Shown one piece after another: positions 16,276 to 23,903 of a stretch of 56,275 nt of DNA. Made by a program: the position numbers and the translations under genes. Each line of letters starts with the position of its first letter. The stretch's first letter is position 1. The notes beneath the pieces were generated by a model. The model was not told the origin of the DNA and made no database searches. It saw only the letters and a list, made by a program, of their open reading frames with translations. The stretch covers positions 1 to 56,275 of the forward strand of contig JBBTQL010000002.1 of the NCBI GenBank assembly GCA_038065715.1, written 5' to 3'. Source of the DNA: Patescibacteria group bacterium. GTDB lineage: Bacteria > Patescibacteriota > Minisyncoccia > Minisyncoccales > Staskawiczbacteraceae.

Positions 16276-16346
16276 AGGGGCATAGTTCAATGGCAGAATA
16301 ATGGTCTCCAAAACCATTGATCAAGGTTCGAATCCTTGTGCCCCTG
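16276..16346 (+). tRNA. trnW: tRNA-Trp (anticodon CCA)
   Basis: Cloverleaf: acceptor AGGGGCA/TGCCCCT, anticodon arm ATGGT-CTCCAAA-ACCAT, T arm CAAGG-TTCGAAT-CCTTG. Confidence 0.93.
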
Positions 16347-16406
16347 CCTTCGCTTCGCTGTAGCGAAGCTTCGGCAAGGCGAAGCCTGCCTAAGATTCGC
16401 GAAGGC
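16346..16406. repeat. GC-rich palindromic repeat element, copy 1, directly abutting the tRNA-Trp 3' end
   Basis: Overlapping hairpins GCTTCGC-TGTA-GCGAAGC (16352-16369) and GCTTCG-GCAAGG-CGAAGC (16368-16385), with an outer GCCTTCGC (16346-16353) / GCGAAGGC (16399-16406) pair. Confidence 0.85.
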
Positions 16407-16649: not shown

Positions 16650-16786
16650 TGAATCGAACTATTCGCTAATATTATGCGACATAAATAAAAAAATCACCTT
16701 TTAATTGAGGTGGTTTTTTAATGCGTTGTATGTATTAGTTGAATTTAGTAACCAAGCCCTGTACCTTATCATTGGGTTAGTGTACG

Positions 16787-16809
16787 AAAAAAGTTCCAAC
16801 CAATGGAAC
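16787..16809 (-). terminator. Intrinsic terminator of the GC-rich operon
   Basis: On the minus strand: GTTCCA-UUGGU-UGGAAC followed by UUUUUU. Confidence 0.75.
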
Positions 16810-16857
16810 TTTTGAGAGCGTCTAAGCAGGTGAACAAAATATAAAATCTGCTGAGCG

Positions 16858-17226
16858 CTATTCGCCGATGAAATCAGGATCAGTATTCTCGAAGAACTCC
16901 TCGGTCTTCATATACTTTTCCAACTCACGCTGGAAGTACTCGTCGAACTGGTCATCGGCGATGCCCAGTTTCTTGGCCGCCTCTCGGAGCTCGGGCTCCA
17001 GCTTGCGGGAACCGATTTCAGCCGCACGCTTTACGTACCTCGTGAGGAACGTGTAAGCCGCGAGATCCTCCAAAGGAACCCCCATCTTTACGGCAAGCTT
17101 GTCTAAGTCACCGAAAAGATCGTACCAGTCCAGCATGGCCTTCCAGCCTCCCTGACGATTCAGTTCGGCTTCTTCTTGGATGGCTGTCTGCCGGAGAAGT
17201 TCCTCCATTATTTTCACACCAGTCAT
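16858..17226 (-). CDS. Orphan protein D (122 aa, net acidic), 4th cistron of the GC-rich operon
   Basis: SD GAAGGAG lies 6 nt upstream of the ATG. GC-rich codon usage. No motif recognised. Confidence 0.7.
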   Translation of the reverse strand: MTGVKIMEELLRQTAIQEEAELNRQGGWKAMLDWYDLFGDLDKLAVKMGVPLEDLAAYTFLTRYVKRAAEIGSRKLEPELREAAKKLGIADDQFDEYFQRELEKYMKTEEFFENTDPDFIGE

Positions 17227-17254
17227 GTTTCGCTCCTTCTAAATGTACAAATTT

Positions 17255-17306
17255 CTGTTTTCGTCCTTTCGGACTCATCAGTTCCGATAACACATCGGAA
17301 TAACAG
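17255..17306 (-). ncRNA. Type III hammerhead ribozyme motif (HHR-1)
   Basis: Minus strand: CUGUUA / UUCCGAU-GUGUU-AUCGGAA / CUGAUGA / GUCC-GAAA-GGAC / GAAA / ACAG. All core nucleotides are present and stem III is a 5-bp CUGUU/AACAG. Confidence 0.8.
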
Positions 17307-17360
17307 GAGGGTTTTGTTTTAGGCAACCCTCATGCCTTTCTTATCGTTGCATTTAACCCG

Positions 17361-17537
17361 TTAGGGTTTGGTCTGGCTGGGCGAATTCGCATTCTGCCTT
17401 GCCAGCTTCGCGTCGAGCCTCCGGATCATTGCCTGCCTTTCGGCAGATGTCATACTCTTCAGCTCGGCGTAACGCCTTTTCCCTAGAAGCCGTTGAACGG
17501 CTTCGGGAGTCAGTTCTCTCGCTTCCTCATCCGTCAT
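17361..17537 (-). CDS. Unannotated 58-aa basic helical ORF C (MTDEEARELTPEAVQRLLGKRRYAELKSMTSAERQAMIRRLDAKLARQNANSPSQTKP)
   Basis: Translated by hand codon by codon. ATG at 17537, TAA at 17363-17361, SD AAAGGAG 7 nt upstream. It starts 23 nt after the stop of cistron B and is below the 60-aa ORF-track cutoff. Confidence 0.6.
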   Translation of the reverse strand: MTDEEARELTPEAVQRLLGKRRYAELKSMTSAERQAMIRRLDAKLARQNANSPSQTKP

Positions 17538-17560: not shown

Positions 17561-17971
17561 TCAGCAGATGTCGCCGTTGGCATTGAAGTTTACGGCTGTA
17601 CCATAGAACTCCTGCTTGGCTGACTTTCGGTAGAACCGAATTTCAACTCTCACCGTGCAGTTGATAAATGCCTTCAAAGTTGCCTCAATTCGCACTGACT
17701 CGCGGAATTCTCTGAAAATCCTATCCGATTCCGCATGGCAGCCATCAAAAAACTTGTATATGATCTGCAACTGCGGACGCAACTCTTCACGGTCGTGATA
17801 GCCACTCATCAGAAGCCCGACAAGTTCAGCCGGAAATACGACTGCATGATTGAAGGCTTTCGCCAGTAATCCGCTATCTTTCACGCCGGTCTCGCACTCG
17901 AGATTCTTCTTATTCGTCAAACGCTGGCGGAGGTAGTTGTCGATAAAAATCGACACTTTCTTGAGTAACAT
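17561..17971 (-). CDS. Orphan protein B (136 aa), 2nd cistron
   Basis: The internal ATG at 17971 has SD AAAGGAG 7 nt upstream. The longer ORF-track start (18061) would read through the hammerhead motif. Confidence 0.65.
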   Translation of the reverse strand: MLLKKVSIFIDNYLRQRLTNKKNLECETGVKDSGLLAKAFNHAVVFPAELVGLLMSGYHDREELRPQLQIIYKFFDGCHAESDRIFREFRESVRIEATLKAFINCTVRVEIRFYRKSAKQEFYGTAVNFNANGDIC

Positions 17972-18022
17972 CGCGATTCTCCTTTTGGGAAATGGCTCGC
18001 TATGGCCAATAAAAATGTGCAA

Positions 18023-18071
18023 CTGTTTCGTCCTTTTGGACTCATCAGGGAAAGCACACACTTTCCGACAG
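18023..18071 (-). ncRNA. Type III hammerhead ribozyme motif (HHR-2)
   Basis: Minus strand: CUGUC / GGAAAG-UGUGUG-CUUUCC / CUGAUGA / GUCC-AAAA-GGAC / GAAA / CAG. The core is complete with a GUC cleavage triplet. Confidence 0.82.
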
Positions 18072-18139
18072 ATGGAGAAATTTGGATGTGTCGGTATTCT
18101 CCGTTGCGCTGGCGCGCACCGACTTATTATCGTGGGAGG

Positions 18140-18709
18140 TTACTCCTCGTGTTCACTCTCCGGGTAGAGAGTTAGCTCTGAAACGGGTTTCCATTTCTTC
18201 CCGTCCCACAAGCGGCTTCCGTTCGGAAGCTCCACGACATCGTTGTCGAACTGATCGTTGAAGGCCATCCAGTGATTGATATCCTTTCTGCACCGGAACT
18301 TCCCGCTGTGGCCCATGTCAGCGCTATACAACCTTGACCCCCACGGCACCGCCAGTAAGCGATATCCGTAATGATCTCCGCTGTTATGGCTGAACGTGGA
18401 CGCCACGACGAGAGCATCTCGCGAACCAATCCCTGCCAGTGCCTGATCAACTCCGACCAGGCAATCTAGCAACTCGACCTCCTGTCCGCGGAACACATAG
18501 ATCCGCTCCTCTTCCACGCCGAGGTTGGCGAAGCGCACGAAGTCCTCCTTTGGCCTGGGCTGGGGTTTGAACCCCACTTTCTCCAGTGCCAAGTTGAAGG
18601 CTTCGAGCACCTTCTCGCTTCCCATCTGGACATCCGAGTCCAGGGCGAACAAACGATCGATGCCACAGAAATCGTTGACCGGACCGACGAAGTAACGGTA
18701 AGTAGCCAT
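18140..18709 (-). CDS. Orphan protein A (189 aa), 1st cistron
   Basis: GC-rich ORF with GAAAGGA 9 nt upstream of the ATG. No motif recognised. Confidence 0.7.
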   Translation of the reverse strand: MATYRYFVGPVNDFCGIDRLFALDSDVQMGSEKVLEAFNLALEKVGFKPQPRPKEDFVRFANLGVEEERIYVFRGQEVELLDCLVGVDQALAGIGSRDALVVASTFSHNSGDHYGYRLLAVPWGSRLYSADMGHSGKFRCRKDINHWMAFNDQFDNDVVELPNGSRLWDGKKWKPVSELTLYPESEHEE

Positions 18710-18789
18710 GAGATTTGTTCCTTTCAGGAAAACGGGCTCTCTATGGCCCTAAATCAGGGGAAGCACCTATACTACAATGTACTATATTA

Positions 18790-18818
18790 AGTATATAATA
18801 CTCTAACCATATTGTCAA
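18790..18818 (-). promoter_or_regulatory. Sigma70-type promoter of the GC-rich operon
   Basis: Minus strand: TTGACA (18818-18813), a 17-nt spacer, TATACT (18795-18790), then TAATATA. Confidence 0.7.
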
Positions 18819-18863: not shown

Positions 18864-18892
18864 CCTTCGCTAAAGCTTCGGCATGGCGAAGC
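18864..18892. repeat. GC-rich palindromic repeat element, copy 2
   Basis: CCTTCGCTAAAGCTTCGGCATGGCGAAGC shares CCTTCGCT and AGCTTCGGCA-GGCGAAGC with the copy at 16346-16406. Hairpin GCTTCG-GCATGG-CGAAGC. Confidence 0.8.
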
Positions 18893-23674: not shown

Positions 23675-23766
23675 TAAATAAACAAAAAATCGTCCTTTTA
23701 CAAGTTTGGGCGATTTTTTGTTTACGCACTTGCAAAATTAATTAAAAAAACATATTATTTAAAATT

Positions 23767-23841
23767 AGGGTCGTAGCTCAATGGGAGAGCGCCCGGAGCC
23801 ACGTGGTCTGGGAGGTGTGGGTTCGAGTCCCACCGACTCTA
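23767..23841 (+). tRNA. tRNA-shaped gene with a non-canonical expanded anticodon loop; identity unresolved
   Basis: Canonical acceptor (AGGGTCG/CGACTCT), D arm (GCTC-AATGGGA-GAGC) and T arm (GTGGG-TTCGAGT-CCCAC). The anticodon stem CCCGG/CTGGG encloses 11 nt, AGCCACGTGGT, instead of 7. Confidence 0.6.
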
Positions 23842-23903
23842 TTTCATTGTTCATTGAAAACTAGATTACCAATACTGAAAAACACAACCCAAGGAGAACC
23901 AAG

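What the first reader, a model, noticed from the sequence alone, without database searches (positions are those of the whole stretch)
18023..18071. Complete type III hammerhead ribozyme motif between cistrons A and B
The minus strand reads CUGUC GGAAAG-UGUGUG-CUUUCC CUGAUGA GUCC-AAAA-GGAC GAAA CAG. Every invariant core position is present: CUGAUGA, GAAA, the A15.1-U16.1 pair and the GUC cleavage triplet. Stem I is a closed 6-bp hairpin, stem II a closed 4-bp hairpin and stem III is open (CUG/CAG plus U-A), which gives type III topology. A GTCGGT...ACCGAC hairpin (18123-18090) lies between the stop of A and the ribozyme. After cleavage it would cap the 3' end of the upstream fragment. The ribozyme would remain at the 5' end of the B-C mRNA. 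From memory, the core and stem II (CUGAUGAGUCC...GGACGAAAC) are very close to the satellite tobacco ringspot virus hammerhead used in synthetic insulator parts. An engineered origin therefore has to be excluded.
Basis: seen in the sequence. Interest (0 to 1): 0.8.

Follow-up and report, generated by a model that had tools for sequence, protein, structure and literature searches.

The report
Two natural hammerhead ribozymes punctuating an operon
The reported motif is a genuine, natural type III hammerhead self-cleaving RNA, one of two that sit between the genes of a small foreign four-gene operon in a low-GC groundwater bacterium; this arrangement has been known from prophages since 2011, so it is a solid but fairly ordinary find.

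Summary
The minus strand at 18071..18023 is a complete type III hammerhead (Rfam RF00008, 49.7 bits against a gathering score of 48.5). A model built only from other genomes' copies scores it at 72.4 bits.

It lies in the next intergenic gap, between genes C and D.

Both lie in a ~2 kb block of 49-60% GC inside a ~33% GC genome. The block has its own strong promoter, four unannotated genes (A, B, C, D) and a terminator. It is found with identical junctions in four independent assemblies.

An engineered origin is excluded:
- The copies differ from sTRSV/RiboJ in stem I and loop II, and lack RiboJ's 3' hairpin.
- They belong to a large natural subfamily, abundant in Patescibacteria genomes and phage contigs, with free covariation in stems I and III.

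Most likely function: co-transcriptional self-cleavage cuts the A-B-C-D transcript into three RNAs (A, B-C and D). Each upstream piece ends in a hairpin. Each downstream piece starts with the folded ribozyme, a 5'-OH and an open leader. Cleavage itself is inferred, not shown.

A 90%-identical copy of gene D elsewhere shares homology that starts exactly at the ribozyme core, so the ribozyme marks a module boundary.

Verdict: new member of a known kind.

The parts
18790..18818 (-). Sigma-70-type promoter of the island operon (TTGACA, 17 nt, TATACT)
   Evidence: 11 of 12 consensus matches, the best site in the region; seen in the sequence
18140..18709 (-). Gene A (189 aa), unknown function. It belongs to a rare family of 11 distant relatives. 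The predicted fold is confident but has no structural relative.
18072..18139 (-). Structured spacer between the stop of A and HHR1. It contains the GUCGGU/ACCGAC arms (18123-18090) and a GGAGAA/UUCUCC pairing (18102-18097 with 18079-18074) that abuts the ribozyme. Candidate 3'-end-protecting hairpin of the A fragment.
   Evidence: MFE -17.6 kcal/mol; family-wide upstream structure
18023..18071 (-). HHR1, a type III hammerhead ribozyme (the finding). Predicted cleavage is between C18067 and G18066.
   Evidence: Rfam RF00008 49.7 bits; subfamily model 72.4 bits over 18076..18017
17994..18007 (-). Small hairpin GGCCAUAGCGAGCC in the leader of B. It is paralogous to one in the leader of A (18735-18748) and private to this island.
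   Evidence: repeat family D5; no other locus has it
17561..17971 (-). Gene B (136 aa), an orphan. Its Shine-Dalgarno sequence AAGGAG lies 51 nt after HHR1.
17361..17537 (-). Gene C (58 aa), unknown function, closely following B
17307..17331 (-). 7-bp hairpin GAGGGUU(11 nt)AACCCUC ending exactly where stem III of HHR2 begins. Candidate 3' cap of the B-C fragment.
   Evidence: an analogous hairpin of different sequence sits at the same place in L245
17255..17306 (-). HHR2, a second type III hammerhead: CUGUU-A|UUCCGA-UGUGUUA-UCGGAA-CUGAUGA-GUCC-GAAA-GGAC-GAAA-ACAG. Predicted cleavage is between A17301 and U17300 (UUA triplet).
   Evidence: subfamily model 62.4 bits over 17310..17250; its MFE structure is the hammerhead fold; Rfam gives only 19.4 bits
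16858..17226 (-). Gene D (122 aa), unknown function. One 90%-identical homologue (P0003) lies on contig L245, also preceded by a hammerhead.
16787..16813 (-). Intrinsic-terminator-like hairpin GUUCCA(UUGGU)UGGAAC followed by U6; end of the operon
   Evidence: seen in the sequence; conserved within the 89%-identical block shared with L245; not called by the simple scanner
16777..17281 (-). Module shared with L245 (89% identity): ribozyme core, stem II, leader, gene D and terminator. The homology starts at the first base of CUGAUGA.
16368..16385 (.). 18-nt palindrome GCUUCGGCAAGGCGAAGC just after tRNA-Trp. Its only other copy is at 18875-18892. Tentative att-like bracket of the GIY-YIG gene plus the island.
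18875..18892 (.). Second copy of the 18-nt palindrome, just outside the island promoter

Best explanation
**What it is.** The window carries two genuine, natural type III hammerhead self-cleaving ribozymes. They sit in the two long intercistronic gaps of a ~2 kb, horizontally acquired, minus-strand operon: promoter, A, HHR1, B-C, HHR2, D, terminator.

**How it most likely works.** As the polycistronic RNA is made, each ribozyme folds: two local hairpins are joined by the conserved core, and a short stem III closes them. Each ribozyme then cuts its own backbone, after C18067 and after A17301. This yields three RNAs:
- A, ending in a structured 3' region with a 2',3'-cyclic phosphate.
- B-C, 766 nt, starting with a 5'-OH and the folded ribozyme, and ending in a 7-bp hairpin.
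- D, starting with a 5'-OH and the ribozyme, and ending at the terminator.

The likely effect is to uncouple the stability and translation of the cistrons and to give each downstream gene a defined, open leader. This is the role the synthetic RiboJ insulator imitates.

**Shown here:** motif, topology, family membership, covariation, natural origin, operon anatomy, and the family-wide hairpin-ribozyme-open-leader layout.

**Inferred:** cleavage in vivo, and its effect on RNA stability and translation.

**Module boundary.** The ribozyme also coincides with a boundary of gene exchange. A diverged copy of D on another contig shares homology only from the ribozyme core onwards.
For: Motif and scores:
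- Sequence and core are intact in both copies.
- Rfam scores HHR1 above its gathering threshold.
- An independent model scores them at 72.4 and 62.4 bits, with nothing else above 12.5 bits in the window.

Family:
- 178 of 264 core matches in viral and genome collections fold as type III with the same architecture.
- In 125 distinct copies, 11 of the 13 variable pairs co-vary.
- One copy in a relative of the host (L298) has a compensatory stem II, GUCG/CGAC.
- The D homologue in L245 keeps a hammerhead with a completely different, fully paired stem I.

Context:
- Family members are intergenic and co-oriented with their flanking ORFs.
- Structure is raised upstream and lowered downstream.
- Many phage copies have a conserved hairpin abutting the ribozyme.

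Operon: strong promoter, terminator, GC of 49-60% against 33%.

Real locus: the same junctions occur in four independent assemblies.

Precedent: clustered hammerheads flanking variable genes in prophages cleave ~2 kb polycistronic RNAs in vitro, and one set cleaves in vivo (Perreault 2011).
Against: - No cleavage data exist for these sequences.
- HHR1 has only a 4-bp stem III, and a competing secondary structure is 2.3 kcal/mol more stable in the nearest-neighbour model.
- HHR2 fails Rfam's gathering score.
- The benefit of cleavage (stability, insulation) is a hypothesis even for the best-studied bacterial cases (review).
- The covariation set was selected for the ability to pair. The real evidence is therefore the 67% pass rate, not the percentage of cells paired.
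- The function of A-D is unknown.
Confidence: 0.8

Rival explanations
1. Circular RNA. Double cleavage releases the 766-nt B-C fragment with 5'-OH and 2',3'-cyclic phosphate ends. An RtcB-type ligase or the reverse ribozyme reaction then joins them into a circular mRNA, as in retrozymes and viroid-like RNAs.
For: Two same-strand type III hammerheads lie 766 nt apart, and the end chemistry would suit RtcB. Perreault 2011 raised this possibility for clustered bacterial hammerheads.
Against: - The two ribozymes differ, and a hybrid stem III between the fragment's two ends would have only 1 bp, so nothing brings the ends together.
- There are no flanking direct repeats around the ribozymes beyond the 23-nt core.
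- Perreault 2011 looked for circular or spliced products in comparable bacterial clusters and found none.
- The fragment carries ordinary Shine-Dalgarno-led ORFs.
Confidence: 0.06
2. Inactive passengers. The motifs are relics carried in with mobile DNA. They no longer cleave, or their cleavage has no consequence in this host.
For: - The island is foreign, and its genes are orphans or nearly so.
- HHR1 has a short stem III and a competing fold.
- Relatives of gene A in other genomes have no hammerhead next to them.
Against: - Every core position is intact in both copies, and the loop positions conserved across the family (U before the loop, G at loop position 1, A-rich loop II) are kept.
- The diverged D module keeps a fully paired ribozyme despite a complete change of stem I.
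- Inactive hammerhead-like relics typically show core mutations.
Confidence: 0.1
3. Engineered or contaminant sequence: a RiboJ/sTRSV-derived synthetic insulator that entered the assembly.
For: 40 of 50 positions are identical to the sTRSV hammerhead. Synthetic RiboJ does contaminate public assemblies: L183 is a 532-bp scaffold carrying RiboJ with its 3' hairpin.
Against: - Stem I and loop II differ from sTRSV/RiboJ, and RiboJ's 23-nt 3' hairpin is absent.
- 32 of 125 natural relatives are closer to HHR1 than sTRSV is.
- There is no match to 72,556 plasmids or 50,697 phage records.
- The same locus, embedded in the same chromosome context, occurs in four independent groundwater assemblies.
- A second, different ribozyme sits in the same operon.
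Confidence: 0.01
4. Conditional switch. HHR1 cleavage is regulated rather than constitutive. The competing fold (upstream CAUC with core GAUG), or the upstream GGAGAA/UUCUCC pairing, decides whether stem III forms, so the A : B-C ratio is tunable.
For: The alternative structure is 2.3 kcal/mol more stable than the active secondary structure. Perreault 2011 speculated about regulated cleavage for phage hammerheads.
Against: - Nearest-neighbour models ignore the tertiary loop-loop contacts that stabilise active hammerheads.
- Short 3-4 bp stem III is common across the family.
- No ligand-binding or extra domain is present.
- HHR2's minimum-energy fold is simply the ribozyme.
Confidence: 0.08

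Closest known systems
Clustered hammerhead ribozymes of prophage and mobile regions in bacteria (Perreault et al. 2011, PMC3088659; e.g. the Agrobacterium tumefaciens ardA cluster, Clostridium scindens, Azorhizobium caulinodans)
   Same: Several same-strand hammerheads flank single genes or short gene blocks whose identities vary. The regions are foreign or mobile and lie near tRNA or integrase-type sites. The proposed role is cutting a polycistronic RNA into gene-length mRNAs. Flanking genes in this subfamily are likewise heterogeneous and mostly unannotated, with a few ArdC/DUF932-type genes.
   Different: Here both ribozymes are type III, of one tight subfamily (GUGU loop I, GUCC-RAAA-GGAC stem-loop II). 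The host looks like a Patescibacteria-type groundwater bacterium. The island is only 2 kb and has no integrase. Cleavage has not been tested.
Satellite tobacco ringspot virus (+) hammerhead and its synthetic derivative RiboJ
   Same: Type III topology; identical core, stem II (GUCC/GGAC) and stem III (CUG/CAG); loop I begins UGUG. 40 of 50 positions are identical to HHR1. RiboJ's engineered role, cutting off the upstream RNA and leaving a defined leader, is what this natural arrangement is inferred to do.
   Different: Stem I is entirely different and loop II is AAAA/GAAA rather than GUGA. There is no 23-nt 3' hairpin. The context is a DNA chromosome, not a 359-nt circular satellite RNA or a vector.
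Retrozymes and viroid-like circular RNAs with type III hammerheads
   Same: Two same-polarity type III hammerheads bracket a 0.6-1 kb segment, which would be released with ligatable ends.
   Different: Those elements carry identical ribozymes within long direct repeats, so the ends re-form a ribozyme, and they are non-coding. Here the ribozymes differ, a hybrid stem III has 1 bp, there are no long repeats, and the segment encodes two ordinary ORFs.

Membership tests
Hammerhead ribozyme, type III (Rfam RF00008) | Conserved catalytic core CUGANGA ... GAAA with an A15.1-U16.1 pair and an NUH cleavage triplet | tested here: met
   HHR1: CUGAUGA, GAAA, GUC. HHR2: CUGAUGA, GAAA, UUA.
Hammerhead ribozyme, type III (Rfam RF00008) | Three helices around the core, with stems I and II closed by loops and stem III open | tested here: met
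   Both copies. HHR2's MFE structure is this fold. HHR1's active fold is 2.3 kcal/mol above an alternative.
Hammerhead ribozyme, type III (Rfam RF00008) | Covariance-model score at or above the curated gathering score (48.5 bits) | tested here: met
   HHR1 scores 49.7 bits. HHR2 scores only 19.4 bits with Rfam (not met for that copy), but 62.4 bits with a subfamily model built from 125 other copies. Rfam also misses the L245 copy.
Hammerhead ribozyme, type III (Rfam RF00008) | Helices supported by compensatory changes among relatives | tested here: met
   Stems I and III: 11 of 13 variable pairs have changes on both sides across 125 copies, and 178 of 264 core matches fold correctly. Stem II was fixed by the search pattern; one independent compensatory example is L298, GUCG/CGAC.
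Hammerhead ribozyme, type III (Rfam RF00008) | Site-specific self-cleavage giving 2',3'-cyclic phosphate and 5'-OH ends | not testable with these tools
   Needs in vitro transcription or end-specific RNA sequencing.
Hammerhead ribozyme, type III (Rfam RF00008) | Loop I-loop II tertiary contacts that allow activity at physiological Mg2+ | not testable with these tools
   Indirect only: the U before loop I is invariant, G at loop I position 1 is at least 90% conserved, and loop II is A-rich across 125 copies. Both window copies keep all three.
RiboJ / sTRSV-derived synthetic insulator | sTRSV stem I (ACCGGA/UCCGGU) and loop II GUGA | tested here: not met
   Stem I is GGAAAG/CUUUCC in HHR1 and UUCCGA/UCGGAA in HHR2; loop II is AAAA or GAAA.
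RiboJ / sTRSV-derived synthetic insulator | Appended 23-nt 3' hairpin CCUCUACAAAUAAUUUUGUUUAA and vector context | tested here: not met
   The hairpin is absent from the window. There is no plasmid match. The chromosomal context is reproduced in four assemblies.
Retrozyme / viroid-like circular RNA element | Identical ribozymes within direct repeats, so that the ends of the excised RNA re-form a hammerhead | tested here: not met
   Only the 23-nt core repeats (family D2). A hybrid stem III has 1 bp.
Retrozyme / viroid-like circular RNA element | Circular RNA product | not testable with these tools
   No transcriptome data are available here.
tRNA-associated integrated genomic island / prophage remnant | Composition deviating from the host genome, and absence from relatives | tested here: met
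   GC is 49-60% against about 33%. None of the 80 closest helicase loci carries A-D. D's only homologue is on a 45-52% GC contig of small co-oriented genes.
tRNA-associated integrated genomic island / prophage remnant | Insertion next to a tRNA gene with flanking direct repeats (att sites) | tested here: inconclusive
   tRNA-Trp lies at 16276-16348. An 18-nt palindrome occurs only at 16368-16385 and 18875-18892, with partial extra similarity and an 11-nt indel. No strict empty site was found.
tRNA-associated integrated genomic island / prophage remnant | Integrase or recombinase gene | tested here: not met
   None among A-D. Only a small GIY-YIG protein lies next to the island.

The most novel reading that the evidence does not exclude
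The unit 'stable hairpin - type III hammerhead - open leader' may be a portable punctuation mark of a pool of fast-turning-over, mostly orphan gene cassettes that is especially rich in Patescibacteria (CPR) genomes and their phages. The near-invariant 23-nt ribozyme core would then do double duty: an RNA processing site, and a patch of shared sequence at which cassettes are exchanged.

Three results point this way:
- 58 of the 80 listed genome hits for the core pattern are labelled as CPR lineages.
- Homology between the window and L245 begins at the first base of the core.
- Half of the 14 related locus pairs share only one flank of the ribozyme.

No paper in the searchable library links hammerheads with Patescibacteria.
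Probability: 0.2. Interest if true: 0.6.

Novelty: new member of a known kind. Interest (0 to 1): 0.35.

Why it matters
The biological purpose of bacterial and phage hammerheads is still undefined, beyond the proposal that they process polycistronic RNAs. This locus is a compact, self-contained test case: one promoter, two ribozymes, four genes and one terminator in 2 kb. It could be moved into a reporter system to measure what cleavage does to the stability and translation of each cistron.

Three wider points follow:
- Rfam's type III model under-detects this subfamily. It misses HHR2 and the L245 copy.
- The subfamily appears concentrated in Patescibacteria, an association I could not find in the literature.
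- The classic plant-satellite sTRSV ribozyme is a close relative of a bacterial and phage subfamily.

None of this overturns current understanding.

Tried and rejected
- **Third, vestigial hammerhead upstream of A.** The A and B leaders share GGCCAUAG(A/C)GAGCC, and the A leader has a CUGAU-like stretch. The subfamily model finds nothing there and the alignment is ambiguous. Rejected.
- **Anti-Shine-Dalgarno idea.** I considered whether the C-rich tract 5' of each ribozyme sequesters the downstream SD until cleavage. Family-wide, the tract is simply the 3' arm of an upstream G/C-rich hairpin. Dropped.
- **Conserved protein partner of the ribozyme.** None exists. A-D have no relatives in 240 hammerhead loci. 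Flanking ORFs elsewhere are heterogeneous. Relatives of A in four other fetched contigs have no hammerhead or other Rfam ribozyme nearby.
- **Function of A-D.** No significant hits in Pfam (only sub-threshold matches for C and D), PHROGs, PADLOC or NCBIfam. PDB sequence search and Foldseek against PDB and BFVD with a confident model of A gave nothing below E=0.09.
- **Strict empty site for the island.** Synteny upstream of the helicase gene is not conserved in 80 relatives. The two loci with a nearby GIY-YIG gene have housekeeping genes in the gap.
- **Compositionally foreign surroundings as a general feature.** The effect is small, +2.3 GC points.
- **Ribozyme-templated circularisation.** The hybrid stem has 1 bp.
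- **The search for related loci with the A-family alignment.** It failed for lack of a conserved stretch.
- **My first hand-written structure string for HHR2.** It was out of register (the +22.7 value is meaningless). The MFE result stands.

Full report
**1. The observation**

The minus strand at 18071..18023 reads CUGUC-GGAAAG-UGUGUG-CUUUCC-CUGAUGA-GUCC-AAAA-GGAC-GAAA-CAG, exactly as reported.
- Rfam's Hammerhead_3 model (RF00008) matches 18074..18020 at 49.7 bits. The gathering score is 48.5, and E=5.5e-8 for the whole window.
- A plain scan for CUGANGA, a closed stem II and GAAA finds only two sites in both strands of the 56 kb window.
- The hairpin arms at 18123-18118 and 18095-18090 exist. 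RNAfold prefers other pairings in that spacer, notably GGAGAA (18102-18097) with UUCUCC (18079-18074), which ends two bases before stem III.

**2. A second ribozyme**

The other site lies between genes C and D, at 17306..17255: CUGUU-A|UUCCGA-UGUGUUA-UCGGAA-CUGAUGA-GUCC-GAAA-GGAC-GAAA-ACAG.
- It is a complete type III hammerhead with a UUA triplet and a 5-bp stem III.
- Its minimum-free-energy structure is the hammerhead fold itself.
- Rfam gives it only 19.4 bits.

**3. Surroundings**

The window is a ~33% GC bacterial contig. It carries a 23S rRNA 3' fragment, a LAGLIDADG ORF in the 23S-5S gap, a 5S rRNA gene and four tRNAs. The ribozymes lie in a block of 49-60% GC from about 16.8 to 18.8 kb. 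On the minus strand this block contains, in order:
- a near-consensus promoter, TTGACA-17-TATACT, at 18818..18790;
- gene A (189 aa);
- HHR1;
- genes B (136 aa) and C (58 aa);
- HHR2;
- gene D (122 aa);
- a hairpin followed by a U6 terminator at about 16809..16787.

tRNA-Trp and a small GIY-YIG gene lie on one side, and a UvrD/PD-(D/E)XK helicase-nuclease gene on the other. The same island with the same junctions occurs in four independent assemblies: NCBI GCA_964366045.1, two Logan runs and an ENA Hainich groundwater assembly. It is therefore not an assembly chimera.

**4. Natural family, not an engineered part**

- Of the 80 genome loci listed, 58 are labelled as Patescibacteria/CPR lineages.
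- 178 of 264 matches fold as type III with one architecture: a 6-7 bp stem I, a (U)GUGU(R) loop, GUCC-RAAA-GGAC, and a variable stem III. A random sequence would pass that test with negligible probability.
- In 125 distinct 60-nt copies, 11 of the 13 variable pairs show changes on both sides. Sliding the partners destroys the signal. The set was selected for pairing, so the pass rate is the real evidence, not the percentage of cells paired.
- A covariance model built from those 125 copies, none from the window, scores HHR1 at 72.4 bits and HHR2 at 62.4 bits. The next hit in the window scores 12.5 bits.

The scans also returned sTRSV itself (L074) and a RiboJ contaminant scaffold (L183).
- HHR1 is 40/50 identical to the sTRSV ribozyme, but 32 of 125 natural relatives are closer.
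- Stem I and loop II differ from sTRSV, and RiboJ's 3' hairpin is absent.
- The island matches no phage or plasmid record.

**5. What the family looks like in context**

- Members are intergenic and co-oriented with their flanking ORFs. The median gaps are 30 and 27 nt in viral contigs, and 81 and 157 nt in genomes.
- The 50 nt upstream are more structured than control windows (-14.8 against -10.9 kcal/mol, p about 4e-9). The 50 nt downstream are unusually open (-6.2 kcal/mol).
- Many viral copies carry a near-identical long hairpin (GGNGUGUCUUCAAAGACACNCC) ending where stem III begins.
- The window follows this layout at both sites. Both the window and L245 have a 7-bp hairpin of different sequence abutting the ribozyme upstream of D.
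- Flanking genes are heterogeneous and mostly lack Pfam matches.

All of this matches Perreault et al. 2011. They described clustered hammerheads flanking variable genes in prophages, showed cleavage of ~2 kb polycistronic constructs, and proposed mRNA processing. A 2019 review still calls the purpose undefined.

**6. The island's genes**

- B matches only itself among 5.8 billion proteins.
- A also matched only itself in the word-indexed search. Exhaustive HMMER finds 11 relatives at 30-44% identity with shared motifs. An AlphaFold model is confident (pLDDT 87, pTM 0.79) but has no structural relative in PDB or BFVD. Contigs encoding four of those relatives have no hammerhead.
- D has one 90%-identical homologue on L245, a 6 kb run of 15 small co-oriented genes at 45-52% GC.
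- That homologue is also preceded by a subfamily hammerhead (65.9 bits). Its stem I is entirely different (CGAGAAU/AUUCUCG), its core is CUGACGA and its triplet is AUC. Rfam does not detect it.
- DNA homology between the window and L245 (89% over 505 nt) runs from the first base of the CUGAUGA core (17281) to just past the terminator (16777). The ribozyme therefore coincides with a module boundary.
- Among 14 related pairs of hammerhead loci, 7 share both flanks and 7 share only one. This is suggestive, but it is also what ordinary phage mosaicism at gene borders would give.

**7. Integration**

- None of the 80 closest helicase loci (69-79% identity, several from the same groundwater project) carries A-D.
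- The subfamily hammerhead occurs once in those 858 kb.
- Synteny is too loose for a strict empty site.
- An 18-nt palindrome occurs only at 16368-16385 and 18875-18892, bracketing the GIY-YIG gene and the island. I treat this as a tentative att-like signature.

**8. Mechanism and rivals**

The best-supported reading is constitutive co-transcriptional self-cleavage that splits the operon RNA into three pieces: A, B-C (766 nt) and D. Each upstream piece has a hairpin-protected 3' end. Each downstream piece carries the ribozyme at its 5'-OH end, followed by an open leader.

The rivals fare as follows:
- **Circular RNA:** disfavoured, because the two ribozymes cannot form a hybrid stem III (1 bp) and share no repeats beyond the core.
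- **Inactive relics:** disfavoured by the intact cores and by the compensated stem I in the diverged D module.
- **Engineered origin:** excluded (section 4).
- **Regulated cleavage of HHR1:** possible but unsupported.

**9. Verdict**

This is a real, natural pair of type III hammerheads in a foreign mini-operon, and so a new member of a known kind. Three side results may interest specialists:
- the apparent concentration of this subfamily in Patescibacteria, for which I found no literature;
- Rfam's under-detection of the subfamily;
- the module boundary at the ribozyme core.

Noticed in passing
window 1-2099: The 23S rRNA match stops at model position 2632 of 2925 and has a 27-nt insertion. 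The 5S gene follows about 1.8 kb later. The gap holds a LAGLIDADG homing-endonuclease ORF (1108-1587) and an 87-aa ORF (368-631). This looks like an intron-interrupted 23S gene, as is common in CPR bacteria (my own knowledge).
   Followed up: partly
window 16368-16385 and 18875-18892: The 18-nt palindrome GCTTCGGCAWGGCGAAGC occurs only twice in the window, bracketing the GIY-YIG gene and the hammerhead island. Partial extra similarity reaches into the 3' end of tRNA-Trp. Possibly att-like, possibly a REP-like hairpin.
   Followed up: partly
window 18735-18748 and 17994-18007 (minus strand): The leaders of genes A and B share a small hairpin, GGCCAUAG(A/C)GAGCC, with one compensatory flanking pair (G-C against U-A). 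It is found in no other fetched locus. Its function is unknown.
   Followed up: partly
L012, L016, L021, L030, L045, L049, L060, L066, L092, L095, L097, L109, L116 and others (viral contigs), directly upstream of the hammerhead: A nearly invariant long hairpin, GGNGTGTCTTCAAAGACACNCC, ends exactly at stem III of the ribozyme in many IMG/VR contigs. Eight of the upstream genes match Kyano_Gp96. It looks like a conserved composite hairpin-ribozyme element in one phage group.
   Followed up: partly
L183 (RAYF01000220.1, 'Bacterium D16-36', 532-bp scaffold): This scaffold carries the synthetic RiboJ insulator with its 3' hairpin and a cloning-site-like sequence. It is apparently synthetic-construct contamination in a public genome assembly.
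   Followed up: no
L245:618-677 and window 17250-17310: Rfam RF00008 misses or under-scores clear members of this subfamily: no hit in L245 at E<=1, and 19.4 bits for HHR2. A subfamily model gives 62-66 bits for the same sequences.
   Followed up: yes
L298:10676-10735: The one subfamily hammerhead found in 858 kb from relatives of the host has stem II GUCG/CGAC, compensatory relative to GUCC/GGAC. Its stem I is the same as that of the L245 copy.
   Followed up: partly
window 18140-18709 (protein A) and P0005-P0014: A small protein family (about 170-190 aa; motifs FRGxE, SHNSG, LLAVPKGS). The AlphaFold model is confident and mostly beta, and has no relative in PDB or BFVD. It may be an undescribed fold or domain.
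   Followed up: partly
L074 (sTRSV, 359 nt) compared with alignment A2: The plant-satellite sTRSV hammerhead shares its core, stem II, stem III and the UGUG start of loop I with this bacterial and phage subfamily. It is about as close to HHR1 as a typical family member is.
   Followed up: partly
window 23766-23842: For tRNA-Arg(ACG), the Rfam alignment shows 11 nt where the model has 7 in the anticodon-loop region, and the score is lower (54 bits). It may have an unusual anticodon loop.
   Followed up: no
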